Assembly (NCBI GenBank): GCA_010093995.1 | Contig: ML992510.1 | Coordinates: forward strand, 137,504-201,503 | Direction of reading: 5' to 3' | From: Elsinoe ampelina | Lineage: Eukaryota | DNA: 64,000 nucleotides | Shown here: piece after piece, positions 42,951 to 64,000 of the stretch | How positions within the stretch are numbered: position 1 is the first letter of the stretch | Layout of the letters: the number at the start of each line of letters is the position of its first letter | Program-made: the position numbers and the translations under genes | Notes under the pieces: generated by a model | Databases searched by the model: none | Told to the model about the DNA's origin: nothing | What the model saw: the letters and a program-made list of their open reading frames with translations, nothing else

Positions 42951-43180
42951 GAAGTCCTCCGAGCACTTCTTCGAATGATTCCCAGAGCCTTGTTGTGAGC
43001 AATTGCGTCCTGAACAAATGTCAAGGGGCATCTTCCAGCTCCGCGGTCGAGGTCGAGGGAGCTCGAGTTGAGCCGAGGTTTCGCCGGCCGCAACTGCCTG
43101 AAAGTTTCTTGCTAACTTGTATGACATTCTCCTGCCTCTGCACGCGATCAGCAATTTGACTTTCACTTTGCTCAGGCATC

Positions 43181-46057: not shown

Positions 46058-47277
46058 TAGGTTGTGTATGTAGAGAGATAGGAGCATGGGGTTCTGCCGT
46101 AAAAAAGTGATCAGGTGACCCGCATTGTCGTCGCAAGTGACACAATTCATGCATGCTGGATGAAGTCAAACACTGCGGTACGTAGTCTTTCATTTATTTG
46201 GTTGAGAATGAAAGCCGTCTACTTGCCCTTTCTTTGTCTGATTGAAAATCGTTCGCTGCTTGACTCACCTAATTAGTGGTCGTTGGATTCACACGCAAAA
46301 TCGTCTCGAACATTGGAGCAGTTAGCCTCACAAATGATTATTTACTCTGCACCAGCCTCTGACAGAGAGCCGCGATGCCATCAGGATATCTGGAGGACGA
46401 CGCCAACTATAGCATGAGCATCGTCAACACGGATGTGGGTTGGACCAATATGCACGATCCAAAATGCATGCCACCGCCATCTTCTCCGTCGTGCGCCACC
46501 TCTTCCCCTCCTGCACAAGTCCCAACCCATCTTTAGCAGACTATATATTTCCACTCACCCCTCCGATACACCAGATCAGTCGCTTAGCCTAGTGGCTACA
46601 GCGCACTACGGATCGCCAATCAAACCAAGCGTTTACGCCGAGTTTGGATTCGCACCTCCGTCGCACACAGTTCGATTCTCGACAACGTCAAGACGACGAC
46701 GTTTACCAGTGTGCACAATTCTCCAAGGGTCGAGTTGCCGATCACCAACTCACTGTCGCAAGACAGGCGCTCCTGTAGAGCAGATTCGGAGCATAGCATA
46801 ATTGTGATAAAGCCTGAGGAAGAAGAACGCGATGAGACGAGTGCGAATTTTTTGCCGTTTCGGTCGCCGAGGTAGGGGAGAGACTGAGCTAGATCCGCTG
46901 AGGTGAGGCATGCGATGAGTTTTTGCATAGCGTTTGAGAGAATAATCACAACAGATGGAGTGTTTGCCACCAATGATGTGTTGTGCCTTATTGCTTGTTT
47001 CATAGAGTGGGATAACAAGCAAGTCCTGCGCAACAAAGTCTGCATAGCTGGACGCACAATTTTCGCCATCACGAACACGCGAACTTCACATTATCTGTAC
47101 ATAACCTCCAAAGACTCTGGTGAAGCACGGAGATCCAACGATGAGCACTTCTGCACTGCCAGATATGGATTACTTCCTACCCAGGATACGCGACGATGAT
47201 GGTCACATTTGGAGATATCGAGCTACTCCCTCAAGCGACAAGGAGCAAGGTCATTCACGTATGTCCTCCAGGACAGC

Positions 47278-47979
47278 ATGCGGTACACTAACCACTTCCC
47301 AGTCCCACGAGGTCCCTTCCAAAACTTCCAACGCATGGTCTTCTCCAAGGACCTCAAAATCTGCGTCTTATACTACAACGACACTCACGCCCCCGACGAA
47401 TGGACCGTCGCCGACTGCATCATCTTCGAGCGCCACCACCTGCTTCCCGTCCTCTGGAGGATGTACTCCGACGACACCATCATCCTTCTTCACGTCAGAG
47501 ACCCTCTCTGCCGCGGCTACGACGCCGGACTGGCCGATATCGTGCGAGAGAACATCGCCAGCAAAGTCCGACTACACCTCATCGCCACAAGCAGGTACAT
47601 GCAACTCGCTGTGCGCTTCGTAGCCTACCGCACTTCCCCTATAGGCAGTCCCAGCCGATACATGGCTCTAGAAGACATGGACACCATACAAGACTCCTTG
47701 GAGCGCGACCGGAAAGTGCGAGCTTCCTTGTTCGACGACGAGCCAATCGCGGGTGCCACGGTGATTGGTGCGAGGAATATACCGGATGGCCAGCTGTGGG
47801 CCGAGTGGAGACGATTGTATGCGAATGAGCGCGACGAGGCGGTGAGACCGGGCTCGACAAATTACAGTGAGGGGAGGAAGTTGGCTGTGTGGCGGCAGGT
47901 GTTTGGGGACGACGATGGGTTGGCGGGTCAGCTGGATGATTTTGTCAAGAAGCGGGATCGTGAGGCGGGGCGTCGATAG
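47278..47979 (+). CDS. Array member 1 of an unassigned paralog family (APDE subtype); start uncertain
   Basis: FSKDLKICVLYYNDTHAPDEW...LLHVRDP. An upstream protein-like frame from ATG 47141 (MSTSALPDMDYFLPRIR...) may join through a frameshift. Confidence 0.7.
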   Translation: MRYTNHFPVPRGPFQNFQRMVFSKDLKICVLYYNDTHAPDEWTVADCIIFERHHLLPVLWRMYSDDTIILLHVRDPLCRGYDAGLADIVRENIASKVRLHLIATSRYMQLAVRFVAYRTSPIGSPSRYMALEDMDTIQDSLERDRKVRASLFDDEPIAGATVIGARNIPDGQLWAEWRRLYANERDEAVRPGSTNYSEGRKLAVWRQVFGDDDGLAGQLDDFVKKRDREAGRR

Positions 47980-48390
47980 GTGCATGCAGAGTGTGTGCTT
48001 CAAACTATGCAGGGGAGCTGGGTAGCTGCTTATCCGGCACATTGAGGATATCCGGTGACACGAAGTTGCTGGTCTTTGAAAGAGTACTCATGCAGCAAAC
48101 CGCAAGCGAGATGGGCTGAGGGGTGTTGTGCGACCCAAGGACTAGTCCGAAAAATCCTACAAGTAGCTTTGCCATCATTTGTGCTATCGCTTCTGCATCG
48201 TCCTATCATTCTCCAGAATTTCTGCCAGTCGATCCTTACATCCAACCTGCCAGATTGTCAGGTCGGACGGACATACCAAGCACTATGGAAGCGCAGAAAG
48301 GGCAAATGATTGCAGTTATGATGCCTCCAGTCCACTATACTGGATCAGCTGGACTGCAATGGAGACTGCCATTTCTTCATCATTGGCAAG

Positions 48391-49061
48391 ATGAGTCACT
48401 CTCTGAGACGACCTTGTCTCCACAGCAGAATCGTACCTGCAGCACTCAAACACTGTGAATTTGGACACCCGATATACACGCTCGTCTCACGTGATGGCAA
48501 GTTCCTCGTACAGTACTACGACGACTGGAGGGCCCCATCGGAACTCACCTGCGCCAATACACTGATTACCAACATGAAAAAAGCTTACTTGACTCGAACG
48601 ACACCACAAAACGGACCACACTACACGGTCGCAACCACCAAGGCGGAGAGCCGAGACCCGTCGCGTTGGAGAAGTACCTCCTGGGCGCGAAAGAATCAGA
48701 GATTTTCTCCTCCCTCGCGGCTGCTTAGTGTTATCGAGAGATCGCTCAACAGTACCGAGAAGCGGAAAAGGCACACCGGGCCCTGATGACGGCCCCTTCA
48801 GGAGGCGTGGAGCAGCTGAACCTACAGCGTCGATTCTGGGTGAAGCACACCATCTGGAACCGTGCGCGGAAGGGAGCTAGGTATTGGCGATACAAGATTG
48901 CAGAGACGGATGAGCAAGAAAACGAAGATCGACAACGTCAGATCGAGCGCATGGGTTTGCGTGTCGCTCGGGATGCCATTGTCTGGTCGAAGGAAGGGCT
49001 TAGGAGATGCAATGATTGCTTATTGAGAGGAGACGTGGATGGATTTCTCAGACTCGTGTAG
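48391..49061 (+). pseudogene. Array member 2 (RxxSE subtype), disabled
   Basis: PIYTLVSRDGKFLVQYYDDWRAPSE, then a frameshift near the A6 run 48577-48582, then RTTLHGRNH. In-frame TAG at 48726-48728, then ...IVWSKEGLRRCNDCLLRGDVDGFLRLV*. Confidence 0.8.
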
Positions 49062-49319
49062 ACGATGAGGTCAAATGCTGCAGTGGCGGAATCTTTTCAT
49101 TGGAATGGTATATACAAGATGGACGCGCGTGTCATACTGGCTGTTGGCACATCACGGTTTTGTTCTCTTCCGAGTCCTCTTCGGGAGAGTCACGTGGTTG
49201 GAGCAAATGCTACATATCCACGTTACTTATCGGTGCTCTGACAGTGTTGAGGTCCACAATGTTCCCTACCTGCTGTCGACATGCCCGTAACGGGAGTGCT
49301 GGACAGTGACTGAGAATCT

Positions 49320-49540
49320 ATGGCGCGTGCAGATGTTCTGCATCAACAACGAAAAAGGGACGATCAAGATCGGCACAAGCTGGAACGTGATAGGCAAGAA
49401 ATACAGGACGTCATCGCCAGAGGAGAGAAGAGCAACTTTGAGTGGACTTTGGAAGAGGCACAATTCGCGACGGCTTGTGCGGATCGGGGCGACCTGCGAT
49501 AATTCTTGACAATGACCGACAAGAAATGTAAAGGAGCAGG
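49320..49540 (+). pseudogene. Array member 3, C-terminal relic
   Basis: ...IQDVIARGEKSNFEWTLEEAQFATACADRGDLR*FLTM matches the family C-terminal motif. In-frame TAA at 49500-49502. No intact N-terminal QYxxD motif was found upstream. Confidence 0.65.
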
Positions 49541-50264
49541 TCTGGAGATCCGACCTAGTGTTGTCAGTTCCAGCAACTTTCTGCCAAAGTCAAGCAGACG
49601 GTATACCCCAAAGCGTAGGAGCCCGCTTGCCCCGAGTATGATGGCTGATGAGGACACTTGCACCCTGCAAAGAACGAGGAGTGCATCTAGAGGACGGGAA
49701 ATACACATACCATTACAAGATACCTATGTCCCTCAAGGGAGACCATTGCGATGACAATAGCCATGATTCATTTCACCATTCTGCGTTGAGCCTCGAGCTG
49801 GCGTTGGCGATGTAGGATCAGAGGTGGTGGTGTTGTTCATCCGAGGTGAACCTTTTAGCCATGGCTTCACTATGGCGAAAGAAGCCTAGCGTCCTTGGTC
49901 TTTGTAAGCACACCTTGAGATGTCCTTGGCTGCTTCCTGGGCGTGAGATTATGGCGTCGGGGAGGGGGGTGGTCTGGCCAATCACAAGCCTTGCTTACTT
50001 TATCCCCTTCCATCACCACAAAAGTTGCGGTCCTCCATCTACTTGCAATTCCAAATGTCGAAGGCTGGTTCATCATTGGATAGTCTTGGCTGATGTTGCT
50101 AGGTAATTGAGAGCTGAAATGTAATCAGTGCATGGTAGGTATTACTCCGCACGGGCAGAGCATCCCAGAGGTATAAAATGGATCCATTGTCCTTCGAGAT
50201 GACAGCGCCAAAGTGAACCACACTACTCAAGAAGGACTTCAAACACACTACATCGCTAAAAAAA

Positions 50265-50894
50265 ATGCTCTACGTACTGTTCACGGCCACAGTGCGAGAG
50301 GAACAGAGTACTCTGTCCGATCAATACTACAGCACACTGCAACCAATAGTTCGGCGAATCGAGGGGTTCGTTGACGAGACGCCCTTTGCAGATCCCTCTC
50401 GACCAAATGGCCAACTCCTACTGGCACGATTCGACGATGAAGATGCAATCGCAAGGTGGAGGAACAGTCCAACACATCTGAGGATCATGCATCACGCACG
50501 CCACGACATCTTCGAAGACTTCAGGGTAACCATTGGCACCGATCTGCCTGACGCTTCCGCCGAGTCGTATCAAGACGCCCGGATGATCGTTGTACATCAA
50601 ACGCCATCACTTGGGGTTCCAAGTACGGATCCGGAGCAAGAAGCACCCTCTTTGGTAACGACGGATAGGCAGATGGAGACTTCGGAGTCATTCATTGGAG
50701 CATCATCTGCCTTGAAAGTTTGGCGACTGAAGACCAAGGCGGAGGTGCAGCACTTGGAAGCCTCGCTCGCGCGTTTGCCCAACGACAGTGTCTATAAAAT
50801 TCATGTGGTTCGAGAGTACGGCAAGAACGAGCGTAAGGAGGCGCCAGCGGGGGTCGATGAAGCAGAGGCTGCTGCCGCTAGCAGGAAAGCATGA
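50265..50894 (+). CDS. Dimeric alpha-beta barrel protein, antibiotic biosynthesis monooxygenase (ABM)-like
   Basis: IEGFV...LLARFDDEDAIARWRNSPTHLRIMHHARHDIFEDFRV and VVREYGKNERKEAP resemble ABM-family proteins. TATAAA lies about 90 nt upstream of the ATG. Confidence 0.7.
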   Translation: MLYVLFTATVREEQSTLSDQYYSTLQPIVRRIEGFVDETPFADPSRPNGQLLLARFDDEDAIARWRNSPTHLRIMHHARHDIFEDFRVTIGTDLPDASAESYQDARMIVVHQTPSLGVPSTDPEQEAPSLVTTDRQMETSESFIGASSALKVWRLKTKAEVQHLEASLARLPNDSVYKIHVVREYGKNERKEAPAGVDEAEAAAASRKA

Positions 50895-51373
50895 TTGGCA
50901 ATCTAGGATATGCAAGTATGCGTGACCTACGAGTAAATGGATCGGAATATCATGCATTTTCGCTGCAGGATCTGAGATACATCCCCGAAAAAGTTCGTCT
51001 CTGTATTTATCCATTCATCTATCGTCCCGAGCTGACCGACTGCATGTATCTTCTCGTTTATGCATATACCCGAGCACATTTCATCCTGCTTCTTCGGTAC
51101 GACACATGAGGTTGGCTGGCTCGCGCCGGTCACATGGAAGGTAGCAGCAAGTGAACGTGCAATGCGGGACGTCAAAGTGCATGTTGACCGCCGTGAATGT
51201 GCCTTTACGGCGCTTGTAGCTTGATGTGATAGGGTGCGGCTCCATACAACAGGTATGGATGGCCAACGAAATCGCTTGAAGCAACAATGCCGACTCCTCG
51301 AAGCACGACAGCTATCGTTCATAAGAGCAGCATCGGGTGTCTAGAATCCGGAAGCAGAAAACCCATTCCCATC

Positions 51374-52192
51374 ATGTCTCAACTCCCAGCACTCCACCTG
51401 ACCCCTTCTCATCAAGCGCCCCAAATCCACCTCGGCGCTCTCGGTGCCACCGACCTCACCCTCTCCTCCCCCACCTTCGCCACCCAAACATCCGACGCCC
51501 AATTCGCAATCCAATACTACCACGACTGGCGCGCCATATCCGAAGAACTTGCGATCGAGGACTGGCTCCTCACCCACACCGACACCCCCTGGCCACCCAC
51601 CACTCCCACCTCTCACCCCTCCACCCTCCACTGCCGCGACCCCCGCCTCGACGACGGCTCACTCCACCTCTACACCCACCTCCCCACCCTCACCGCCTCC
51701 ACCCTCCGCCCCTCCCTCGCCGACCTCCCCCACTTCACCCCCCTGCTCCACGCCCAAAACACGCTCCTCTCGCAACGCCAACTCCTCTCCGACGCCCGTG
51801 CGACCTCCGACGCGAACACAGCGCAATCCGCCATCCAAGACGCGTGGAGCACAATCACGAAGCTGGAATCGCGAGCGAAGAGGTTCAGAGAAGCGGATGA
51901 GGAGACGCGGAGAGTCAAGATCGCGAGAAGGAAAGAGGAGGCGTTGGCGCTGTTTACGGCTTCGTTGGAGGAGGGCATTTATTGGAGCGAGGGGGAGGTG
52001 GGGGAGATGGTGGGGTGTCATGGTCGGGGGGATTTGGAGAGGGTGGGGGAGATGATGAGGGGGAGGGGGTTGAGGGGGGGTTCGCTGGGGAGGGGGGGGG
52101 GATGTTGTGGGGGGTGCATAGGGGGGAGTGCGTGTGGGCTGTGTTTGGCAAATTTTGCGTGGGGGTTGGGAGAAAGGGTTTGGCTTGTGTGA
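51374..52192 (+). CDS. Array member 4 (RxxSE subtype)
   Basis: MSQLPALH...PTFATQTSDAQFAIQYYHDWRAISEE...TLHCRDPRLDDGSLHLY...EGIYWSEGEVGEMVGCHGRGDL. The 3' end lies in G-homopolymers, so the stop is uncertain. Confidence 0.85.
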   Translation: MSQLPALHLTPSHQAPQIHLGALGATDLTLSSPTFATQTSDAQFAIQYYHDWRAISEELAIEDWLLTHTDTPWPPTTPTSHPSTLHCRDPRLDDGSLHLYTHLPTLTASTLRPSLADLPHFTPLLHAQNTLLSQRQLLSDARATSDANTAQSAIQDAWSTITKLESRAKRFREADEETRRVKIARRKEEALALFTASLEEGIYWSEGEVGEMVGCHGRGDLERVGEMMRGRGLRGGSLGRGGGCCGGCIGGSACGLCLANFAWGLGERVWLV

Positions 52193-52516
52193 CGCGATTG
52201 GTGTTTGTGCTCAGGCGGTTGGATGAAGTGGTGAGTGGCTCGGGAAGGTGGTACGGCTTGTGAGTATGTTGGGTTTGTGGTCACTTGTACGACGGAGAGC
52301 TGCATGGCCGCTTCGCCAGCCCAGATGACTGGAGTGTCCGGTCCACCCATCCACATTGATGTGATTTGTGCCATTGCAGGCAGAAGTTGGGCAGCTCAAA
52401 GGAACTTTGGTCAGCAGGTCTGATCTGTTACCATGTCTATAGCGACCATATATACTTACAATCGGCTTCTTACCTCTCTTTAAAGCGTTATCTAGCCCTT
52501 CTTCGATCACGTGAAC

Positions 52517-53254
52517 ATGTCGTCCCTCCCAGCGCTACAGCCAGTACCCGAGGTTCCTGAAGGGCAGCCGGCCGGTCAAGTCATCCAAGGATGTCTGTAT
52601 CCAGCCTTTTCGGCACCTACCTTTATCTTCATCACACACGACGGCAAGTTTGCGATTCAGTACTGGCACGACTGGCGAGCATCGTCTGAAGCCACCCAAA
52701 TGGACTCGTATCTCAGCGGTATCATGCGTACAGCCCGCACCTTTATCGATCAGCCCCAACGAATAATACTCCACTGTCGTGATCCCCGCATCGGGACCGG
52801 ATCACTGCATCTTTACGTGACGCTGTTTAAGAGTACTTTGCAAGAAATCAGGCAAACAATGCGACAGTTACCACGCTACTCCGGTCTGCTGAGATTACAG
52901 GAGTCGATCCGGGAGAAGAGGGACCTGTACAACCTTTTGATTCCGGACACCGCTGAGCAACAAGCTGTAAAGGCCGAGGCGTTGGCTGAGATCGATGAGC
53001 TGAAAATTGTGCATGAGCGGTTCCGAAGAGATAGGCAGGATGCCGAAAAGGATGCCGAGAGGACGATCAGGACGCGGAATGAGAAGATTCAGGAGTTGTA
53101 TGCTTGGTCGGTGATCAATGAGGGGAATTGGTCTGTTGAGGAGAATGCTGAGGTGACAGCCTGTGAGCATCGAGGCGATTTGGCGCGTATGAAGGAGATC
53201 ATACAGGAGCGAAAGGCAAGGAAGGAAGCATTGATAGGGGCTTTGATAGCTTAA
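52517..53254 (+). CDS. Array member 5 (RxxSE subtype)
   Basis: MSSLPALQ...PTFIFITHDGKFAIQYWHDWRASSE...ILHCRDPRIGTGSLHLY...EGNWSVEENAEVTACEHRGDL. Confidence 0.88.
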   Translation: MSSLPALQPVPEVPEGQPAGQVIQGCLYPAFSAPTFIFITHDGKFAIQYWHDWRASSEATQMDSYLSGIMRTARTFIDQPQRIILHCRDPRIGTGSLHLYVTLFKSTLQEIRQTMRQLPRYSGLLRLQESIREKRDLYNLLIPDTAEQQAVKAEALAEIDELKIVHERFRRDRQDAEKDAERTIRTRNEKIQELYAWSVINEGNWSVEENAEVTACEHRGDLARMKEIIQERKARKEALIGALIA

Positions 53255-54149
53255 CCTTGAATTCTACCATCAAGGCCCATGTCGGCAATGTCGGTGCGGA
53301 CGAGAAACGCGTCATTCTGCGGTGGGCCTTGACGATAATTTGTGCATAAGCTTTAACTGTGGCGTGCTAGAAGACGACCCGAAAATGTGACACTGGCCAT
53401 GTCATCGATGATGGTGTTGTGAGCTTGGGACGCTCTGCTGAGCAAGGCAGGTACCTTTCCAGATCATGTGCTGATCTTGCAGGTACTTGTCACGTTGCTC
53501 CAACGGATGCCGGTATCCAGGGAGACATATCGGCAGGATTGTACATACATGCCACAGACAAGATCAACCAGATACTGGCTATCCTATTGTGGTCAACGCA
53601 GACGAGAACCTGTAGTCTGAATCCACGAAGCCAATCATCCCCTTGTGATGGCTTGAGATGGCCTCAGGCAAGCGTTTCACAGTAAATTCTCGTGATCGCA
53701 ATCCGGCCTTGTGCACAACCTTGAGCAAACCAGAACTTCAGGTCGTACCAAATGTCGTGTCCTACGGAACGACTGGCGCGCCTTGACAAGACAATTGACA
53801 TTTGATCTCAGGATTTATCCATATTGTTGTCGACTGAAGTGCTTGTATGTTGACTGACACAATGCGATACGTGCGGAAGAAGCTGATCCAATGCTTGCCA
53901 AAAGTCATGCTTCGTACCACTATGATTGTGGTACAGCTTACACAACTTCGTGAGGCAGGTCGAGTGCGCTCGCTGTGCTCAATTCACTGTAAAGAGCATC
54001 ACTAGCCAGTCGGCGGTTTGCTGGACGTGGAAATATAAGCGGGTTCAAGGAAGGGCTATGGTCTGGTTCAGAGTGCAGAACGAGTCCTCCCACGTCCTAC
54101 GACCGCCTCGACAACGCATCTCTGACTTCTTCCAACCAAGTCAATCACT

Positions 54150-54854
54150 ATGTCGGCGACTGATATCAGCGGTTTCGAATGTCCAACACATAAAATCCAG
54201 ACGCAGGACGGACTGGTGGTCGTCCAGTACTGGAACGATCTTCGAGTGCCATCAGAACTTGTCAACATCGACAATTACCTCTTGGACGATGAGAAGGTCG
54301 TCTGGTCGCCGGACTCCAGCGGGACAAAGATCATCATCCATTGTCGCGATCCGGATTTCATTCCAGAGCGGCGTCCCTTAGGCGTCAGAGCAGTGTTGGA
54401 GAGGGCAGCGGCAGTGGATGCAAAGGCCGCTTTCGAGCATCTCGGTCGATACTTCGATTTGCGGACCTGCAGGCATCAGATCCACAATTGCCAACAGGAG
54501 ATCGCTAACACCACCGACCCGGTCAAAAGGGATGAATGGGTCAGGAATCTCGAGAAGGCAAGAGATCAGCTAAGAAGTATTATGGACGACTTGGCCACCC
54601 AACGGAGCCGAAAAGAAGGTAGCGATGCCGCTTTGCTCCATAGCAGGAGGGACAGTATTAATCAAGGTCTGAATCAGCTCGCGCAAGAAGGCATTCAATG
54701 GGCTGCGGACGAGCTCGAGCTCATCAATTCCTGGCTAAGGCGTGGAGATTTACCCTCATTCCGTCGCTTGGTTCAAAGAAGGAGATTACAGATGCGCGGC
54801 GGTCGACTAACTCGAAGGGGGTCCCAAGAAGCCCGCAGGGGCGGACGACGATAG
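54150..54854 (+). CDS. Array member 6 (RxxSE subtype)
   Basis: PTHKIQTQDGLVVVQYWNDLRVPSE...IIHCRDPDF...EGIQWAADELELINSWLRRGDL. Confidence 0.88.
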   Translation: MSATDISGFECPTHKIQTQDGLVVVQYWNDLRVPSELVNIDNYLLDDEKVVWSPDSSGTKIIIHCRDPDFIPERRPLGVRAVLERAAAVDAKAAFEHLGRYFDLRTCRHQIHNCQQEIANTTDPVKRDEWVRNLEKARDQLRSIMDDLATQRSRKEGSDAALLHSRRDSINQGLNQLAQEGIQWAADELELINSWLRRGDLPSFRRLVQRRRLQMRGGRLTRRGSQEARRGGRR

Positions 54855-55293
54855 AGTCGGTCGGTCGTCGACAGGCTCGTGTCAGATTCAGGAGAAGTGA
54901 TTGCGAGTGCTTGAGGATGAGGCAGCTGCGGGCTCAGCTTTGTCGAAATCGTTAGCGCCTTCCTATATACGTTGTGGAGGTCAAAGCGGGAAGTTGGGGG
55001 TTGCTTGAGCAAGACATCAGCTTCTCTTCTCATACCTGCCCCTCTACTATAGCCCGCTCACATGCATAGTTCTACTTCCACATTACTATATTGATTCACC
55101 GTCGTTTGAGATTATGTTGCCAGCGGGACGACCTACCCATATATTTACTCACAGTCCTGAGGTAGAACATAGATATTAGAACTACTTGGCAGCATCAACG
55201 TTTCCTTCGTTGAACCCACACAACCCAGCGTCCTATCGCCACAACGCAGAAATGAGTCGTCGAGAACAGACCATGGGTCCTTAGCTCGGCCAA

Positions 55294-56556
55294 ATGTCTC
55301 CACGGCCATGGACTCGACCGGGGCAGCATCGGAGCGCGTATCTTGTGTTACCTCCCATCCAGTCTCAGGGCCGACCTGACCGCCAGGAATCGATTTCGAG
55401 CGGCTCGAAGACCCCAAGTACGCTCGTAGAGTCACACAAGTCAGAGGGTAGCAACGACTCTCAAGCCGACAGGCAAGACGAATCAGCAATCTCGGACCGC
55501 AGCACGCTCCCATGGAGCGCAACTTGGCAATGGCCACAGGATCTATCAACAGGATCGGCGGCCTTCAGACACACTGCTCAACCAGCAGGTGGAAGAGAGC
55601 AGGAAAATACTGCACAGTCACGACCCATATCCGAAGTGTCCGGCAATGATATGCCAATCCAAGGTCGGCCAGAACAAGACGAAGGTAATGTTCAGCAGCG
55701 AGGTGGAGTCGACCCAAGAAGCTTTCTTCCACAACCGAGAGTGCCGCAGAGTCACCGCATTCCCCAATCTGTCACACGGCCGACAGAATCTGCGAACTGG
55801 CAGCGAACGGAGCGGGTAGCATCAACCCCTCGCATGGCCACGGTTCAAGCCGGCCAGCTTGTTTCCCACAAACTGTACACTTGTCCGACATTCTACTTCG
55901 AATCTCATGGCGGGAGGATCGTGATACAATACTGGGCTGATTTCAGAGCGCCGTCCGAAATGGTAGAAGCCATCAGGATCATGCTTGAGTCAGACGACGA
56001 CACATCGTGCTCGAATCGGCGTACACTCCACTGCCGAGATCCGAAATGGAGGCACGTGGACATATATGAGCCTGACGAAAAGACCAGGAACTGGTTCTCC
56101 CTTCCCCCGATCTTGGCCACAGTGAGAACACCTTGTCAAATGCGAACAATCCTTGGAAGGCATCGAAAGTTCATCAGGCTGACCGAGATCCGAATGGAGA
56201 ATACCAGGATCGACATGGAGCTCAATGATAGCCCTGTTGCCGGCAATCGATTCCAGGAGCAACGGGATTATAACCAGGTTCAAGAGGATAAAATTACGAG
56301 ATCCTGGCTACAGGAGGTACTGAAAGCGTGGTTCTCTGTTGACGTCTTCATCCGCAATACCAACGACGAGATCAATCTGTTCATCAGGCGGGCTGAAGCT
56401 CGCGGTGTGGTGGTGACGCCCGAGATGAAGGCCGTGATTGACGACTGTCGGAGGAGGGGCGACGATGACACTGTCTTTAAGCTTCTGAGGCAGGAGGGGC
56501 TCGGAGTCGTGAGCGCGAACGAGTTGGCAGGAGTCTTTGCCGGAATGAGAGCGTAG
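55294..56556 (+). CDS. Array member 7 (RxxSE subtype) with a ~180-aa low-complexity N-terminal extension; alternative start 55834
   Basis: PTFYFESHGGRIVIQYWADFRAPSE...TLHCRDPKW...RGVVVTPEMKAVIDDCRRRGDD. Confidence 0.85.
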   Translation: MSPRPWTRPGQHRSAYLVLPPIQSQGRPDRQESISSGSKTPSTLVESHKSEGSNDSQADRQDESAISDRSTLPWSATWQWPQDLSTGSAAFRHTAQPAGGREQENTAQSRPISEVSGNDMPIQGRPEQDEGNVQQRGGVDPRSFLPQPRVPQSHRIPQSVTRPTESANWQRTERVASTPRMATVQAGQLVSHKLYTCPTFYFESHGGRIVIQYWADFRAPSEMVEAIRIMLESDDDTSCSNRRTLHCRDPKWRHVDIYEPDEKTRNWFSLPPILATVRTPCQMRTILGRHRKFIRLTEIRMENTRIDMELNDSPVAGNRFQEQRDYNQVQEDKITRSWLQEVLKAWFSVDVFIRNTNDEINLFIRRAEARGVVVTPEMKAVIDDCRRRGDDDTVFKLLRQEGLGVVSANELAGVFAGMRA

Positions 56557-57008
56557 TCATCACCAATGTTGGAAATTCTTCCTTGCCTGCTCTTCTTGAA
56601 GTGCTGTGCCAATCAATGTGATTGATGATTGGCTTGTCCAGAATGGTCCGACGTGGCGATTTCCAACTCTGTTAAGCAGCCCTTGATACTGCGATAGCTC
56701 GGACATGATTCGAAAAGTAAGTCGACACTTGGGGGACAGTGATGTTAAAGGTGTAATCAGCCGTACATGGAGGAAGGCGAGATTGGTATACGGCGGTCTG
56801 ATGGAGGTGAGGAACTATTCGAGCAGTCACCTCATCCTTGAGCTTCACACGGTCTTTCACATGCTACTTCACATTCACATAGCCACACTCTCGTGATCCC
56901 AAGCAGCATGCCTCACGCCCCCCCTCACATGCATCTCTTCATCTCTACACCATCCTCTCACACACTCACATCACCAACATCTTCATTCATGCACTCACAC
57001 CACCAACC

Positions 57009-57938
57009 ATGACCTCCACAATCACTTACGTCAACCCCACCTTCTCCCTCCTCACGCCCTGCAACCGCCTCAAAGTGCAATACTACGCCGACATCCTCGC
57101 CCCCGACGAAGAGACCGTGACCGACGACTTGGCCCTCCACACCACCCTCACCCTGACCCACACCCACCGCGAGCCCCAAGTCCTGCACATCTGCGACCCG
57201 GACCTCGACGGCTTCCCCGTCCCCGAACTCCGATCCCTGGTCACCACCACCCCTCTCGCCTCCCTCAGATCCGCCCTCCGCTCCCTCCCGCGCTACGAAG
57301 AGACACGCCGCCTCGAAGCCGACTACGACAAGGAGATGCGCCTCGTTCGCCTCAAGGGACAGTTCCCCACCGGCGAGGAAAGGTGGGTGCGTGACCTCAA
57401 GGAGGCACAGGAGAGGCGACAGCGGTACCGTACCCTGCGAGCGGAGAGGAAGTTGGAGGTCGTGAAAGATCGGACGTGGGAGGGGTTTGTGGAGGAGGTA
57501 GCGGTGCCGGAAGCGAGGAAGAAGGCGGAGAGGAAGGCGAGGAGGGAGGCGGCGAGGGAGGAGGAGGAGAGGAGGTGGGATGAGGGGAGGAGGGCGAGGT
57601 TGGGTGCTGCTGTGGAGAGGAGGGCGAGGAGGATGGAGGCGGAGAGGGAGGCGGAGAGGGAGGCGGAGAGGGAGGCGGAGAGGGAGAGGGAGGCGAAGGG
57701 GAGGGAGAAGGGGAGGGTGGATTCGCCGATGCAGGATGTGAGGAGGACGTTGGCGGATTTGAATGTCTGGGAGAGGTTGGAGTGGGATGAGATTCGTGAG
57801 AGGAGGAGGGTGAGTAGGGAGGGGCCGAAGGTGGAGAAGAAGGAGAATTGGTATATGTTGAGTGCGGAGGCGAAGGGGAGGATTGTGGCCAGTGGAGGGT
57901 GGGCGGAGGTGCAGAGGAGGTATAAGCGGCAGGCGTGA
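57009..57938 (+). CDS. Array member 8 (APDE subtype) with an E/R-rich helical region
   Basis: PTFSLLTPCNRLKVQYYADILAPDEE...VLHICDPDL...LRSALRSLPRY. Confidence 0.82.
   Translation: MTSTITYVNPTFSLLTPCNRLKVQYYADILAPDEETVTDDLALHTTLTLTHTHREPQVLHICDPDLDGFPVPELRSLVTTTPLASLRSALRSLPRYEETRRLEADYDKEMRLVRLKGQFPTGEERWVRDLKEAQERRQRYRTLRAERKLEVVKDRTWEGFVEEVAVPEARKKAERKARREAAREEEERRWDEGRRARLGAAVERRARRMEAEREAEREAEREAEREREAKGREKGRVDSPMQDVRRTLADLNVWERLEWDEIRERRRVSREGPKVEKKENWYMLSAEAKGRIVASGGWAEVQRRYKRQA
57636..57683 (+). repeat. Four copies of the 12-bp coding repeat GAGGCGGAGAGG (EAER)
   Basis: Read directly from the sequence, inside array member 8. Confidence 0.9.
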
Positions 57939-58703
57939 TTGAATGTGCGGAATGGGTAGATCGGGAGAAAAATACCTATGCGTCGTGGTCGAAATCGGTA
58001 GCTGGCACGAGCAATTGCGAGAGAAGATGAGTAGACAGCCCGGGAATGGTTCAGGATGCTCTGACGAGCTGTGCAAGGCCAAATTTGCGCTGGTAGAAAA
58101 GGCAGCCAGGAGATTGTGGTGAACAAAGGGGCCACTTAATACGCAGCTCGAATGAATACCTCCAGCTGCCAATAAGGAGCAGAAACTTGTCGTCCTCATT
58201 TTGCGGTCTCTGAAGTTGTTCAATACCATGCACCTCCACGGGTATGCTTCACGAAGTCCGGTCTTCGGCATGCTGCTCCTGTCGGACGCCGGCATGAACT
58301 TGAGCACAGTCTCAAGATGTTTTTGATCTTTCTCAGCGAAAGACAGATCATGTCGTCGAGGATAAGGCACCAGAGCCATGGTTCGGAGGCCCGCTCGTGT
58401 TTGTGTTCATCTGAATGATTGGCACAACTCGAACTGGACATATGTAAAGAATTTTCCGCTGTCATACAGCCTGTCTCACATGTTTTGACGCCCAGTAAGG
58501 GCTTGCGGCGATTCGTAGGGGATGATGTCGTTGCTGCTGCTACGCTGTTGTACAAGCATGTTGGTCGCGTGAGAGGTCATAAAACGGAGTGCCTTCCTTG
58601 GGGTGTCGGCGATGCTGCTCATCACAGTCTTGCAACGCTCTCACCACCTCCATCAGCTGCGAGAGAATTGGCATACCCTGTCGACACCCGGGAACACCCA
58701 AGC

Positions 58704-59429
58704 ATGACTGACAGAGCGCCACAGAACAGGCCATTCGTCAACCTGGTCGAGATTGTCAAGTCTCCTTGTGGTCAGATGGAGCTGCAATATTACGATGATG
58801 CCTTGGCGCCTGACGAGCTTACCGCCATGGAATTCATTGTTTTTGGTGCCGGGCTGAGTTCTGTACCTGGAACCCAAGGATGGGCATTGGCAGTTTGCAG
58901 TCCCGAGACTGACGGCAATGGCTGTGGTCTGAAAGAAATCGTCCGGTCAACGCCAGTCGCCCAGCTCCGCGAGCGACTATGGAGACTAGATGAATTCCAT
59001 GGCGACAGGGAGGCTCAGGACATGTACTGCGCGGAATTAAGGATGCTGCAGACTCGGGGTATTGTCCGGACTGGATTCGAGCCTGGCGTTGCTCGGTATG
59101 GTCTGACATTACAACGACGCCAGAATGCCCAGTACTGGCGGAAGTATGCGAAGGACCCTCGCTGGGACGTACCCGACGCTCGACCGCTTGCGATCGCACA
59201 AGGGCCGGCTGCGGATGAAGAGAAACGTAGGCGGAGATTCCAGCATGCCATGACCGGCCTCAGAGAGGAGCTGTTGCAGGCCACGCGGCAGGGTGATGTG
59301 CTCGCTGAAATCGCAGCCAGCCGCCAGATGAGGCGTGAGCAATTGGATTGGGGGTTTGACCTGGGCGGCAACCGTCTCGACCAGGCAACGCGGAATGCCC
59401 TGACGAGGTCGCTCGGCTTGAGTGGCTGA
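58704..59429 (+). CDS. Array member 9 (APDE subtype, most diverged)
   Basis: VKSPCGQMELQYYDDALAPDEL...LAVCSPET...LKEIVRSTPVAQLRERLWRL aligns with member 8 (TPCNRLKVQYYADILAPDE...LRSLVTTTPLASLRSALRSL). First in-frame ATG at 58704. Confidence 0.75.
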   Translation: MTDRAPQNRPFVNLVEIVKSPCGQMELQYYDDALAPDELTAMEFIVFGAGLSSVPGTQGWALAVCSPETDGNGCGLKEIVRSTPVAQLRERLWRLDEFHGDREAQDMYCAELRMLQTRGIVRTGFEPGVARYGLTLQRRQNAQYWRKYAKDPRWDVPDARPLAIAQGPAADEEKRRRRFQHAMTGLREELLQATRQGDVLAEIAASRQMRREQLDWGFDLGGNRLDQATRNALTRSLGLSG

Positions 59430-62400: not shown

Positions 62401-62659
62401 CTTCTGCGACCGTAACCAAAAGACCCTGTGTCGACCCTCGAATAACTCAAATCGGTCAACAACAGAGCATTCGTTTTCCGCGCTCCTATTCCTCACATCA
62501 CGTCACAAGATGCCTGGCTTGATATTATAACACGAGCTGGCCTTCGGGTCCAAGTTTTGCGCCGAGTAATACTCTGCAAGGACTGTCAATTCATACACCG
62601 CCTGTGTGCAAGAGCGCGCAGTCAATCACCCACCAATCTCATATACACACTTCGCAGCC

Positions 62660-64000
62660 ATGTTTGCGACACCACACACATCGAGTCAGGTCGCGGATGA
62701 CCTGACCCATGAGTCGGAAGAGCCTCCTGACGAAAAGCTGCACAGTATAGCAGGTCAACCTTTGGAACCCAACTTCGCCAAGGCAATCCCAAGGCGCGCC
62801 CTCTACACTAGGAGAGAGTCATTGCTCACGAAGCAACTGCACGCCAGCGAAGGCGAGTCGCATACTGAAGATGAGCGTTCGGAGTATCGCTCTACTGGTC
62901 GCGCCCTCTCTACTTCCAGCATGGCCGACCTCACCAGCGACAACGACATGACAAGCCCTGGTACTCGAGGCAGTTCTCCTAGTCCTACACTGCCACCGGC
63001 CCGGCTCACACTTGCAGTCCCGACGCTAGAGAAGCAAATTGTCAAGGAGCCAACCATTGTTGAACAAGACGAGAATTCGCCGGCCACTGCGGTCACGGAG
63101 AAGGCTGTCGAGACTGGTCTGGGCCGACGCCGCTGTATAACGTTCGCATGTGGAAGAAAGGCGTCAGAAACCAAAGAACCCATCAAGGCACCAGAGCTTT
63201 CGTCGCAAAACAAGACGCCTACTCCACCCAAACGCAAGTGCGCCATCACCTTTGCTTGCCCCACCAGAACCAAGCCTGCGACTGAGAAGCTCACTCTCAC
63301 CACTCGCCATGTCAGCCCGGCACCCAAGTCTCCAAGATCACCACGTGTGTTTAAGCAGCACCGCGGCTCTGAAAGCACTGTCACCAACTCATCTCCATCG
63401 ACACTCAAGAAGGTTCCGTCTGTCATCAGACGTCGCAACAAGTATGTTGACGATGCCGATGAAGACAAGCGCGAGGCAAAGCGCTTCCACGAATTTGCTA
63501 TCGATGCTCATGCCGACGATGAATGGACCGAGGAGATCACTTGCCATCGTAAGCGTTTGACAGTCAAGGACACCCTCTACAAAGAGAACGTCATTCGCCA
63601 AATCGGCGAAGAGTTTGAAGAGGAAGAGGGAGCAGAAGATGAGATCGATGAAGAGGCTATTCTGGACGAATTGGACGAGGAAGAGGGCGACTTGGACGAC
63701 GATGAAGACGATGAGGATGAGGACGACGAAGATGATGATCTGGACGACGGCGAAAGTGCTCGGGCTTCAGTCATGGCACAGGCCGGCGACACTATATCCG
63801 ATGGGGGTTTCGACACCGATGATGAGGAAGGTTTCGCCAACACATCCGAGAGTGAGGGCGACGACAGCGATTTCGAATGGTGGGCTCCTGGCCGCTCTAC
63901 TGCAGCTACCTCCACGGATGCTCTGGAACACATTCGTCCCGCCCACCACCGAAAGCTTTCCGACTCATCACTCGAGTCTGCTCGTGAAGCTAATGGTGCT
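62660..64000 (+). CDS. Conserved fungal protein, probably DUF2457 family; 3'-truncated by the window edge
   Basis: The frame is open from ATG 62660 to the end of the window (absent from the ORF track, presumably because it has no stop). RRESLLT, ITFAC twice, KRFHEFA...DDEW...LTVKDTLYKENVIRQIGEEFEEE, a long acidic tract, SDGGFDTDDEEGFA. Confidence 0.72.
   Translation, partial: MFATPHTSSQVADDLTHESEEPPDEKLHSIAGQPLEPNFAKAIPRRALYTRRESLLTKQLHASEGESHTEDERSEYRSTGRALSTSSMADLTSDNDMTSPGTRGSSPSPTLPPARLTLAVPTLEKQIVKEPTIVEQDENSPATAVTEKAVETGLGRRRCITFACGRKASETKEPIKAPELSSQNKTPTPPKRKCAITFACPTRTKPATEKLTLTTRHVSPAPKSPRSPRVFKQHRGSESTVTNSSPSTLKKVPSVIRRRNKYVDDADEDKREAKRFHEFAIDAHADDEWTEEITCHRKRLTVKDTLYKENVIRQIGEEFEEEEGAEDEIDEEAILDELDEEEGDLDDDEDDEDEDDEDDDLDDGESARASVMAQAGDTISDGGFDTDDEEGFANTSESEGDDSDFEWWAPGRSTAATSTDALEHIRPAHHRKLSDSSLESAREANGA

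What the first reader, a model, noticed from the sequence alone, without database searches (positions are those of the whole stretch)
47141..59429. Tandem array of ~9 highly diverged paralogs of an unrecognised protein family (QY[YW]xD...[SD]E / HCRDP)
Seen in sequence: between CWC22 and a DUF2457-type gene lie about 9 same-strand, apparently intronless copies (intact ORFs ~230-420 aa). Eight share a compact N-terminal block: m1 FSKDLKICVLYYNDTHAPDE..LHVRDP; m2 VSRDGKFLVQYYDDWRAPSE..LHGRNH; m4 QTSDAQFAIQYYHDWRAISE..LHCRDP; m5 ITHDGKFAIQYWHDWRASSE..LHCRDP; m6 QTQDGLVVVQYWNDLRVPSE..IHCRDP; m7 ESHGGRIVIQYWADFRAPSE..LHCRDP; m8 LTPCNRLKVQYYADILAPDE..LHICDP; m9 KSPCGQMELQYYDDALAPDE..LAVCSP. A long charged helical/coiled-coil segment follows. 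Y, D and E are invariant and H/C/D/P are strongly conserved, while the rest is very divergent and no nucleotide-level repeat is obvious by eye. I do not recognise the domain. Inference: an old local expansion under birth-and-death evolution. The conserved D/E/H/C residues could form a catalytic or metal site. Fast-evolving tandem families in fungi often turn out to be conflict systems (allorecognition/cell death, meiotic drive, antiviral defence), but nothing here proves that function.
Basis: partly seen in the sequence, partly recalled or inferred. Interest (0 to 1): 0.92.

Follow-up and report, generated by a model that had tools for sequence, protein, structure and literature searches.

The report
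Elsinoe-only tandem orphan gene family
A row of seven intact and two decayed copies of a protein family found only in Elsinoe scab fungi; it is real and undescribed, but nothing yet shows what it does.

Summary
The array is real. Between CWC22 and a DUF2457 gene lie seven intact same-strand genes (m1, m4-m9). There is also one pseudogene with a frameshift and an in-frame stop (m2), and one C-terminal relic (m3). An unrelated ABM-domain gene sits inside the array. Pairwise and leave-out profile tests give significant homology, and nothing else in the window matches. No member reaches any Pfam cut-off.

A profile search of 1.84 billion representatives found 19 proteins: 15 named Elsinoe or Sphaceloma, one from the window, and three unnamed. 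The tree groups genes by array position, not by species. E. fawcettii locus tags run in the reverse of the window order. So the array predates the sampled Elsinoe species and is inherited mostly as 1:1 orthologues. These diverge strongly (40-50% identity to E. fawcettii).

Only Y, E and P are invariant, and D is kept in 24 of 25. H and C are not conserved, so a catalytic or metal site is not supported. A D42-R88 to C42-C88 switch points to a structural contact.

AlphaFold gives a small sheet-plus-helix module on a helical rod. A crude hydropathy check found no signal peptide or membrane segment.

Best reading: soluble, non-enzymatic binding proteins restricted to this genus, function unknown. 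The conflict-system idea is unsupported but not excluded. Spliced antisense transcripts cross the array.

The parts
47141..47979 (+). m1: intact member with two exons, join(47141..47249, 47303..47979). The intron is 53 nt.
   Evidence: ORFs. tblastn of E. batatas P0004 matches in two pieces, 75% and 91% identity. GT..AG ends and a CTAAC branch site are visible. Profile E 4e-67.
48391..49061 (+). m2: pseudogene. It has a frameshift near the A6 run at 48577-48582 and an in-frame TAG at 48726-48728. Its motif has decayed to LHGRNH, so the otherwise invariant P is lost.
   Evidence: Frames and sequence. Profile hits: N-part 9e-12 and C-part 0.0019, in different frames. The P0015 tblastn match is split over two frames.
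49314..49652 (+). m3: C-terminal relic that keeps the RGDL block. It has an in-frame stop at 49500-49502, and no N-terminal domain was detected.
   Evidence: Profile E 1.6e-5 and 1e-5 with the leave-out profile. 36% identity to residues 157-266 of E. batatas P0015, aligned through the stop.
50265..50894 (+). Embedded gene that is not a family member: an ABM (antibiotic biosynthesis monooxygenase) domain protein of 209 aa.
   Evidence: Pfam PF03992, E 7e-8. blastp to family members gives E 0.36 or worse. The E. batatas orthologue is 82% identical.
51374..52192 (+). m4: intact member. An in-frame ATG also lies upstream at 51287. The Gly/Cys-rich C-terminal tail differs from the E. batatas orthologue.
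   Evidence: P0006 aligns from 51374 at 79% identity. Profile E 7.5e-77.
52517..53254 (+). m5: intact member of 245 aa. This is the copy that was modelled.
   Evidence: 92% identical to E. batatas P0001 and 50% to E. fawcettii P0002. AlphaFold2 model: pLDDT 82.5, pTM 0.70.
54150..54854 (+). m6: intact member of 234 aa with a basic C-terminal tail.
   Evidence: Groups with E. fawcettii 070030 at support 99/97. 44% identity to it. Basic runs.
55294..56556 (+). m7: intact member of 420 aa. The family core starts near 55846. It is preceded by an N-terminal extension of about 185 residues with no counterpart in the other members.
   Evidence: The exact protein is in public collections as P0005. Long branch in the tree.
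57009..57938 (+). m8: intact member of 309 aa. It has the TPC...HICDP variant and an Arg/Glu-rich repeat.
   Evidence: A 12-nt tandem repeat lies at 57635-57686. Groups with E. fawcettii 070010 at support 94/93.
58704..59429 (+). m9: intact member of 241 aa with the SPC...AVCSP variant.
   Evidence: The exact protein is in public collections as P0003. Its orthogroup with E. batatas, E. fawcettii and E. australis has support 100/100.
55004..55061 (-). Intron of a spliced minus-strand transcript, lying between the m6 stop and the m7 start.
   Evidence: A joint 55003->55062 in one contig of run X6 has ends CT..AC on the + strand, which is GT..AG on the - strand. The sequence shows GTGAGC at the minus-strand 5' splice site.
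58762..58822 (-). Intron of a spliced minus-strand (antisense) transcript, lying inside the conserved N-terminal block of m9.
   Evidence: A joint 58761->58823 in one contig of run X6 has ends CT..AC on the + strand. The sequence shows GTAAGC at the minus-strand 5' splice site.
43181..46057 (+). Upstream flank: a CWC22-like gene with MIF4G and MA3 domains.
   Evidence: Pfam MA3 2.7e-20 and MIF4G 5.7e-13.
62570..64000 (+). Downstream flank: a DUF2457 gene that runs off the end of the window.
   Evidence: Pfam DUF2457 1.4e-34.

Best explanation
This is a protein family restricted to the genus Elsinoe and its Sphaceloma forms. It is encoded by an old, collinear tandem array. In this genome the array holds seven intact genes, one pseudogene and one relic.

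Each protein is soluble. A crude hydropathy check found no signal peptide and no membrane segment. The predicted structure has three parts: a small N-terminal sheet-plus-helix module, a long helical hairpin or rod, and a two-helix C-terminal cap.

The few invariant residues (Y, D, E, P) hold the N-terminal module together. They are not a catalytic or metal centre.

Inference: the proteins act as non-enzymatic binding or scaffold proteins. The conserved module is the common core, and the fast-changing helical surfaces give each paralogue its own partners. The basic tails of m6, m8 and m9 hint at nuclear or nucleic-acid-associated roles.

Shown: the array, the homology, the taxonomic restriction, the positional orthology and the conservation pattern. 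Inferred: the non-enzymatic binding role and the cellular location.
For: Array and homology.

Taxonomic restriction: 19 of 1.84 billion representatives reach E<=0.001. Of these, 15 clusters carry Elsinoe or Sphaceloma names, one is the window's own, and three are unnamed. No member reaches a Pfam cut-off: 0 of 8 and 0 of 25.

Age and orthology:
- The tree of 26 rows groups by array position. Support values: m9 group 100/100, m8+m9 clade 96/95, m6 with faw_070030 99/97, m5 with faw_070050 100/99.
- E. fawcettii tags 070000, 010, 030, 050, 060 and 070 correspond to m9, m8, m6, m5, the E. batatas 8893 type and (weakly) m1. That is the window order reversed.
- Members are adjacent in E. australis and S. 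murrayae, and on one unnamed 2566-nt contig.

Structural role of the conserved residues:
- Y 25/25, E 25/25, P 25/25, D 24/25, but H 19/25 and C 15/25.
- D42 pairs with R88 in 16 of 17 rows. All 7 rows of the m8/m9 clade have C42 with C88.
- In the models, AP[SD]E precedes helix 58-67 and DP follows strand 83-88.

Fold: pLDDT 82.5 and pTM 0.70 for the whole protein, 79.7 and 0.70 for the N-module.

Soluble and coding: the maximum 19-residue hydropathy is 0.59-1.39. The GC1/GC2/GC3 pattern matches CWC22 and ABM.

Core-genome setting: the neighbours are TsaD, a patatin lipase, a cohesin loader, POB3/SSRP1, a WD40 protein and CWC22.
Against: There are no functional data of any kind.

The only strand-specific transcript evidence is antisense: two minus-strand introns. 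Sense expression is therefore not shown.

The models rest on shallow alignments of 10 and 25 rows. I could not inspect coordinates, so the D42-R88 contact and the clustering of Y, D, E and P are inferred from covariation and secondary structure only. The D/R to C/C switch is a single evolutionary event in one clade.

Strong divergence (40-50% identity to E. fawcettii) would also fit an arms race. An enzymatic role using the invariant Y, D and E cannot be ruled out by sequence alone.

The only rate baseline is one neighbour, the ABM gene at 82% identity to E. batatas. Family members are at 78-92%. On that comparison the family is not shown to evolve unusually fast between close species.
Confidence: 0.5

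Rival explanations
1. A genetic-conflict module (allorecognition or cell death, meiotic drive, or toxin-antidote). The paralogues diversify under an arms race.
For: The family is tandem and lineage-restricted. It diverges strongly between species (40-50% identity to E. fawcettii). Two copies have decayed, and one orthogroup (E. batatas 8893 with E. fawcettii 070060) has no intact copy here. Antisense transcripts cross the array.
Against: Members are kept as positional orthologues in collinear order across species, not turned over. No HET, NACHT or other death or defence domain appears in Pfam for 25 members. PADLOC gives one match in 1 of 10 members (PbeC, E 0.0013) and none in the other nine. 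There are no membrane segments. The locus lies among housekeeping genes. Identity to E. batatas (78-92%) is no lower than that of the neighbouring ABM gene (82%).
Confidence: 0.12
2. Host-interaction proteins (effectors) of these plant scab fungi, delivered without a classical signal peptide.
For: Homologues were found only in Elsinoe/Sphaceloma records and three unnamed records. All named Elsinoe and Sphaceloma species are plant pathogens (my own knowledge). The genes are clustered, carry no Pfam domain and diverge quickly. The E. fawcettii genome preprint lists these features as typical of effectors (10.1101/2019.12.19.882142, passages seen).
Against: The N-termini are not hydrophobic; the 10-residue hydropathy maximum within the first ~35 residues is 0.67-1.28, by a crude test. 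The proteins are 233-420 aa, poor in cysteine (2-7 Cys) and predicted to be helical rods. The locus lies among housekeeping genes, and GC stays at 0.50-0.63 per kb across the array. The 5g070 locus tags are not mentioned in the main text of that preprint; its supplements were not seen.
Confidence: 0.1
3. A nucleic-acid-binding family whose N-module is a degenerate PD-(D/E)XK-like or KH/RbfA-like fold, with basic tails that bind RNA or DNA.
For: The strand-strand-strand-helix-strand order of the N-module matches the core order of PD-(D/E)XK proteins (my own knowledge). Weak rows recur: VRR-NUC 4qbn E 2.7; a viral PD-(D/E)XK protein E 0.5 and VRR-NUC E 0.97; RbfA E 1.3-1.6 and Z 2.1. Basic runs occur in m6, m8 and m9.
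Against: All these scores are at noise level. The positions that would carry the nuclease D and (D/E)xK are P/T and Q-Y-[YW], with no conserved lysine. No nuclease or KH family appears in Pfam for 25 members.
Confidence: 0.08
4. An enzyme or metal-binding protein whose D, E, H and C residues form the active site.
For: Y, E and P are invariant and D nearly so. The m8 group carries C42, H86 and C88 together.
Against: H is replaced by A, P, Y, F or L in 6 of 25 sequences. The C of HCRDP is I or V in 10 of 25. The second C exists only in the m8/m9 clade. No enzyme family matched by sequence.
Confidence: 0.05
5. The ORFs are not genes. The functional products are the antisense or non-coding transcripts.
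For: The only splice junctions seen are on the minus strand. Only m7 and m9 of the window's ORFs are found as exact proteins in the public collection.
Against: Seven open frames of 233-420 codons are kept. Amino-acid-level conservation holds across at least four species, with an invariant motif and a covarying residue pair. The AlphaFold models are confident. The codon-position GC pattern looks coding. Orthologues are annotated in four other genomes.
Confidence: 0.02

Closest known systems
Taxonomically restricted (orphan) tandem gene families of filamentous fungi
   Same: It has no Pfam domain, a narrow taxonomic range, local duplication and rapid divergence. The E. fawcettii genome preprint reports on average 25.4% species-unique genes across ten comparison fungi (10.1101/2019.12.19.882142, passage seen). 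Such genes are therefore common.
   Different: Here the whole array is retained in collinear order across several species of a genus. It keeps a sharply conserved 60-residue core and a confidently predicted fold. This argues for a maintained function and against transient orphan genes.
Fungal conflict gene families: wtf (Schizosaccharomyces), Spok (Podospora), HET-domain allorecognition genes (features recalled from my own knowledge)
   Same: Multi-copy, fast-diverging, lineage-restricted genes with pseudogenised copies.
   Different: There are no membrane helices, unlike wtf. There are no large nuclease or kinase domains, unlike Spok, and no HET or NACHT domain. Copies are positional orthologues in a housekeeping region, not mobile or strain-variable.
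Helical hairpins such as the Hsp104/ClpB middle domain, the MICAL bMERB domain and the PKN HR1 domain
   Same: Residues 115-222 of the m5 model superpose on these antiparallel coiled-coil hairpins. Values: Z 8.5, rmsd 6.3, 99 aligned for 6azy; Z 8.0, rmsd 1.6, 61 aligned for 4nkg_D; Z 7.9, rmsd 1.3, 58 aligned for 9g0c_A.
   Different: Scores in this range are usual for any long helical hairpin, as the tool's own note says. There is no sequence similarity. None of these proteins carries the N-terminal module.
RbfA / type-II KH-like and PD-(D/E)XK (VRR-NUC) small alpha/beta folds
   Same: The best, though noise-level, rows for the N-module are RbfA (Foldseek E 1.3-1.6; Z 2.1, rmsd 4.1, 63 aligned) and VRR-NUC or PD-(D/E)XK (E 0.5-2.7). 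The order of strands and helix is similar.
   Different: Nothing is significant, and the nuclease catalytic positions are not conserved.

Membership tests
Tandem paralogue array | Adjacent same-strand genes with statistically significant mutual similarity | tested here: met
   There are seven intact and two decayed copies. The control protein and all ORFs outside the array are non-significant.
Taxonomically restricted gene family | No homologue outside a narrow clade in an exhaustive profile search | tested here: met
   One search gave 19 hits in 1.84 billion representatives. Searches show 15 named Elsinoe or Sphaceloma, one from the window and three unnamed. The search is limited to a single HMMER profile pass over predicted proteins.
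Any Pfam-A family | Score at or above the curated gathering cut-off | tested here: not met
   0 of 8 members; 0 of 25. The most frequent weak family, HOATZ-like, matched 2 of 25 with best E 0.0013, and the window member m4 scored 18.6 bits against a cut-off of 25.
PD-(D/E)XK / VRR-NUC nucleases | Conserved acidic residue at the start of the second core strand and (D/E)xK in the third (definition recalled) | tested here: not met
   The corresponding columns are P (15/25) and T (18/25), then Q (20/25), Y (25/25) and Y/W. There is no conserved K.
PD-(D/E)XK / VRR-NUC nucleases | Shared alpha-beta-beta-beta-alpha-beta core fold | tested here: inconclusive
   Foldseek E 2.7 and 0.5-0.97. The family is not among the 4 rows with Z>=2 for the N-module.
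RbfA / type-II KH | Fold match covering the domain | tested here: inconclusive
   Z 2.1, rmsd 4.1, 63 aligned. Foldseek E 1.3-1.6, TM 0.27-0.30.
HET-domain or NLR allorecognition proteins | HET, NACHT or NB-ARC domain detectable by Pfam | tested here: not met
   None is listed for 25 members at E<=1.
wtf-type poison-antidote drivers | Several transmembrane helices (definition recalled) | tested here: not met
   The maximum 19-residue Kyte-Doolittle mean is 0.59-1.39 in the seven intact members. This is a crude test.
wtf-type poison-antidote drivers | Two sense transcripts from alternative starts encoding poison and antidote | not testable with these tools
   The runs are held only as contigs, which cannot show starts or strand.
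Classically secreted fungal effectors | N-terminal signal peptide | tested here: not met
   The 10-residue hydropathy maximum within the first ~35 residues is 0.67-1.28. This is a crude test; no dedicated predictor was available.
   H 19/25; C87 15/25; C88 7/25.
Known anti-phage or defence protein families (PADLOC) | Consistent match to a defence-system model | tested here: not met
   1 of 10 members matched one model (PbeC, E 0.0013). The other 9 matched none.

The most novel reading that the evidence does not exclude
The array encodes a previously unseen, genus-specific intracellular system built on a new small fold. For example, it could be a set of hetero-oligomerising paralogues that act in self/non-self recognition, genome defence or host manipulation, with antisense transcription controlling which copies are expressed.
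Probability: 0.12. Interest if true: 0.75.

Novelty: new variant of a known kind. Interest (0 to 1): 0.4.

Why it matters
It adds an undescribed protein domain and a well-defined, syntenic nine-slot locus that is specific to the Elsinoe scab pathogens. Because the array is kept in order across the genus while its sequences drift to 40-50% identity, it offers a clean natural series for two questions. The first is how a young family holds a fold with only four fixed residues. The second is whether genus-restricted genes contribute to the biology of these fungi.

As it stands it is one of many fungal orphan families, with no functional lead. Its value is mainly as a candidate for annotation (a new domain model) and for a targeted deletion and expression study.

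Tried and rejected
- **Whole genome:** none is held for this window. Paralogues elsewhere in the genome could not be sought.
- **ESM Atlas:** two queries gave no usable hit. This says nothing about novelty.
- **Fold searches found nothing above noise:**
  - Foldseek PDB with the full model: best E 0.43.
  - VIA wide with the full model: best Z 8.6, rmsd 1.0, 58 aligned, helical hairpins only.
  - VIA wide with the N-module: 4 chains with Z>=2, best 2.2.
  - Foldseek PDB with the N-module: best E 1.3.
  - BFVD viral library: best E 0.19.
  - pdb_via: best Z 8.5.
  - These do not show that the fold is new.
- **PDB sequence profile:** best E 0.14, to designed helical proteins.
- **NCBIfam:** 0 of 10 members matched.
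- **Homodimer prediction for m5:** no verdict. ESMFold2 did not use the alignment, and its own fold of the partner chain was uncertain.
- **Sequencing runs:** no RNA holder was listed. In the four runs laid, no contig lay on m1, m2 or m3 apart from one weak bin in X6, and almost none on m5. That is no evidence on their expression.
- **Shared upstream motifs:** the commonest 7-, 8- and 9-mers in eight upstream regions were no more frequent than in shuffles.
- **SANT/Myb-like reading of the C-terminal W..EE..RGD block:** considered from memory, but no such Pfam family appears in 25 members.
- **Literature:**
  - Searches found nothing on this family.
  - The locus-tag search led to the E. fawcettii genome preprint. 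Its main text does not mention the 5g070 tags.
  - Its supplements were not seen and might list these genes.
- **Earlier findings of this scan:** three look-ups returned nothing.
- **dN/dS:** could not be computed because no orthologous DNA was reachable.

Full report
**Observation**

Eight of them align over a compact N-terminal block, with Y, D, E and P invariant. The similarity is not chance.
- In an 11-sequence blastp database, m4-m5 scores 6e-34, m8-m9 8e-18 and the m4/m5/m6/m7 pairs about 1e-10 to 1e-11. The embedded ABM protein, used as a negative control, never scores better than 0.36.
- A profile trained only on m4-m7 recovers m8 (4e-17), the m2 N-block (4e-11), the m3 relic (1e-5), m1 (4e-5) and the m2 C-part (7e-4) among 1284 six-frame ORFs of the window.
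- That profile finds m9 only at E 0.15. m9 is tied in through m8, and the m8+m9 profile in turn finds m1, m5, m4 and m2. No ORF outside the array scores better than 0.67 or 0.053.
- Tandem Repeats Finder reports only short repeats inside m4 and m8, with no gene-length DNA repeat.

**Corrections to the anatomy**

Seven copies are intact: m1 and m4-m9.
- m2 (48391-49061) is a pseudogene. Its QYYDDWRAPSE block and its LHGRNH block lie in different frames, with the shift next to an A6 run at 48577-48582. An in-frame TAG sits at 48726-48728, and the otherwise invariant P of the second block is lost.
- m3 (49314-49652) is only a C-terminal relic that keeps the RGDL block. It has an in-frame stop at 49500-49502.
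- m1 has a 5' exon (47141-47249) and a 53-nt intron with GT..AG ends and a CTAAC branch site. This matches the annotated E. batatas orthologue.
- m4 most likely starts at 51374.
- m7 carries an N-terminal extension of about 185 residues that has no counterpart in the other members.
- A second conserved block, W..E......C..RGD, lies near the C-terminus of m2-m7.
- The gene at 50265-50894 is unrelated. It is an ABM-domain protein.

**Taxonomic range**

The word-indexed search with m5 found only E. batatas (92% identity) and E. fawcettii (50%). With a seven-member alignment it found four proteins.

The exhaustive HMMER profile search of 1.84 billion representatives found 19 proteins with E<=0.001, of which 17 were at E<=1e-10. 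Cluster look-ups sort the 19 as follows:
- 15 are named: E. batatas 5, E. fawcettii 5, E. australis 3, Sphaceloma murrayae 2.
- One is the window's own m7.
- Three are known only from unnamed assemblies.

So the window comes from an Elsinoe species whose closest named relative among the hits is E. batatas. To the sensitivity of one profile pass, the family is confined to this genus.

**Evolution**

I built a maximum-likelihood tree of 26 rows. Left out were near-identical cluster members, the window's exact database copies P0003 and P0005, and the two broken copies. The tree groups proteins by array position, not by species:
- m9 with E. batatas 8267, E. fawcettii 070000 and E. australis 9028 (support 100/100).
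- m8 with E. fawcettii 070010 (94/93), inside an m8+m9 clade (96/95).
- m6 with 070030 (99/97).
- m5 with E. batatas 9069 and 070050 (100/99).
- m4 with E. batatas 8271 (100/100).
- m1 with E. batatas 8364. E. fawcettii 070070 joins on a long branch, so this placement is unsure.

The E. fawcettii tags 070000, 010, 030, 050, 060 and 070 thus read m9, m8, m6, m5, the '8893 type' and (weakly) m1. That is the window order reversed. This assumes that tag numbers follow gene order, which I could not check against coordinates.

Members are also adjacent in other records. In E. australis the tags are 9024, 9026 and 9028. In S. murrayae the accessions are consecutive. One unnamed 2566-nt contig holds two members.

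The duplications are therefore older than the split of these species, and the copies are inherited mainly as 1:1 orthologues. There is some turnover:
- m2 and m3 have decayed.
- The E. batatas 8893 / E. fawcettii 070060 type has no intact copy here. It matches m2 and m3 at only 31-36%.
- In one search, m4 groups only with its E. batatas orthologue (8271).
- E. australis 9024 and the unnamed protein P0008 form a sister pair (99/95).

Divergence is large. Identity to E. batatas is 78-92%. Identity to E. fawcettii is 40-50%, with the N-module at 48-54% and the rest at 35-46%. Identity to E. australis is 35-41%. The only baseline I could get is the embedded ABM gene, at 82% to E. batatas. Between the two closest species, the family is therefore not shown to be faster than its neighbour.

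**What the conserved residues are**

Over 25 sequences, Y49, E58 and P90 (m5 numbering) are invariant and D52 is kept in 24. H86 is kept in only 19 and C87 in 15.

The 'conserved cysteine' is really two columns. HCRDP has C87 and R88, while the m8/m9 clade has H[IV]CDP or AVCSP, with C88. Column 42 covaries with column 88:
- D42 goes with R88 in 16 of 17 rows; the other row has Q88.
- C42 goes with C88 in all 7 rows of the m8/m9 clade.
- m7 has G42 with R88.

This is one evolutionary switch, so it is suggestive and not statistical. It fits a direct contact between the hairpin turn and the end of the last strand.

In the models, AP[SD]E leads into helix 58-67 and DP ends strand 83-88. I read the invariant residues as fold-holding. 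The catalytic or metal-site idea is not supported.

**Structure**

AlphaFold2 on m5 with 10 sequences gives pLDDT 82.5 and pTM 0.70. It predicts strands 21-24, 34-39 and 45-50, helix 58-67, strand 83-88, and then helices 119-140, 146-202, 207-219 and 222-244. The RGD block lies at the break between the last two helices. The N-module alone, with 25 sequences, gives pLDDT 79.7 and pTM 0.70.

The best structural rows are generic helical hairpins for residues 115-222 (Z 8.5-8.6) and noise-level rows for the N-module (Z 2.2, E 1.3). I could not read model coordinates, so the spatial clustering of the invariant residues was not tested.

**Other properties and setting**

The seven intact proteins have no hydrophobic N-terminus and no membrane-length hydrophobic stretch, by a crude hydropathy test. 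They carry 2-7 cysteines, and m6, m8 and m9 have basic runs. Their codon-position GC pattern matches the neighbouring CWC22 and ABM genes.

The flanks are ordinary core genes: a TsaD-family protein, a patatin lipase, a cohesin loader, POB3/SSRP1, a WD40 protein, CWC22 and DUF2457. GC stays at 0.50-0.63 per kb across the array.

**Transcripts**

Four runs held as contigs, with RNA status only guessed, lie on the window at 99% identity or more.
- Cover over CWC22 spans 43150-46109, and cover over the downstream gene starts at 61865.
- Contigs also lie on parts of the array from the 3' end of m4 through m9.
- One run shows two joints, 55003->55062 and 58761->58823. Both have CT..AC ends on the + strand, which are GT..AG introns of the minus strand, with GTGAGC and GTAAGC donor sites.
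- The second intron lies inside the conserved block of m9.

Spliced antisense transcripts therefore cross the array. Sense expression is not shown by these data.

**Verdict**

The family is real and undescribed, and homologues were found only in Elsinoe/Sphaceloma records.
- 'Old local expansion' is supported, and in fact the expansion predates the species sampled.
- 'Catalytic or metal site' is not supported.
It is not excluded, because divergence is high and selection could not be measured.

My best reading, at moderate confidence, is a set of soluble, non-enzymatic binding or scaffold proteins. They share a small structural module and differ on their helical surfaces.

Orphan families are common in fungi. 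The E. fawcettii genome preprint reports on average 25.4% species-unique genes in ten comparison fungi (passage seen). The finding is therefore solid but only moderately surprising.

Noticed in passing
window 55004-55061 and 58762-58822, minus strand: Two canonical GT..AG introns of minus-strand transcripts appear in contigs of run X6. One lies between m6 and m7. The other lies inside the conserved N-terminal block of m9, so it belongs to an antisense transcript.
   Followed up: partly
window 50265-50894: An ABM-domain gene sits inside the array. It is itself narrowly distributed. It is 82% identical to E. batatas KVT40_008026, and the only other hits at E<=1e-10 are two unnamed proteins at 47% and 41%.
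   Followed up: partly
window 56958-58379, minus strand: A 473-codon ORF lies antisense to m8. It is Pro/Leu/Arg-rich, low in complexity and has no Pfam match. It is probably a by-product of the GC3-rich (0.85), purine-rich coding strand of m8 (my inference).
   Followed up: partly
window 57635-57686 (m8): A perfect 12-nt tandem repeat, GGAGGCGGAGAG x4.3, encodes the Arg/Glu/Ala repeat of m8. Contigs of runs X2 and X4 have loose ends at 57646-57692. This may reflect repeat-length differences or assembly breaks.
   Followed up: no
m5 residues 42 and 88 (alignment A4): There is complete covariation. D42 pairs with R88 in most members, and C42 pairs with C88 in all seven sequences of the m8/m9 clade.
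   Followed up: yes
window 52050-52192 (m4 C-terminus): m4 ends in a Gly/Cys-rich tail that the 79%-identical E. batatas orthologue P0006 lacks. P0006 ends about 25 residues earlier.
   Followed up: no
window 45453 and 58527: The window reads T at 45453, inside CWC22, where all four laid runs read C. At 58527 two runs read T for G. Otherwise the runs are 99% or more identical to the window.
   Followed up: no
protein P0011 (Sphaceloma murrayae PNS13850): This family member is named 'Conserved oligomeric Golgi complex subunit 5' in its source. No COG5 match appeared for any member in Pfam. One member had a weak COG7 row at E 0.045. The name looks like an annotation error.
   Followed up: partly
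window 59430-62570: A 3.1-kb stretch between m9 and the DUF2457 gene has no ORF over 162 codons. Contigs lie on 59556-60062 in three runs. This may be an unannotated small or non-coding transcript.
   Followed up: no
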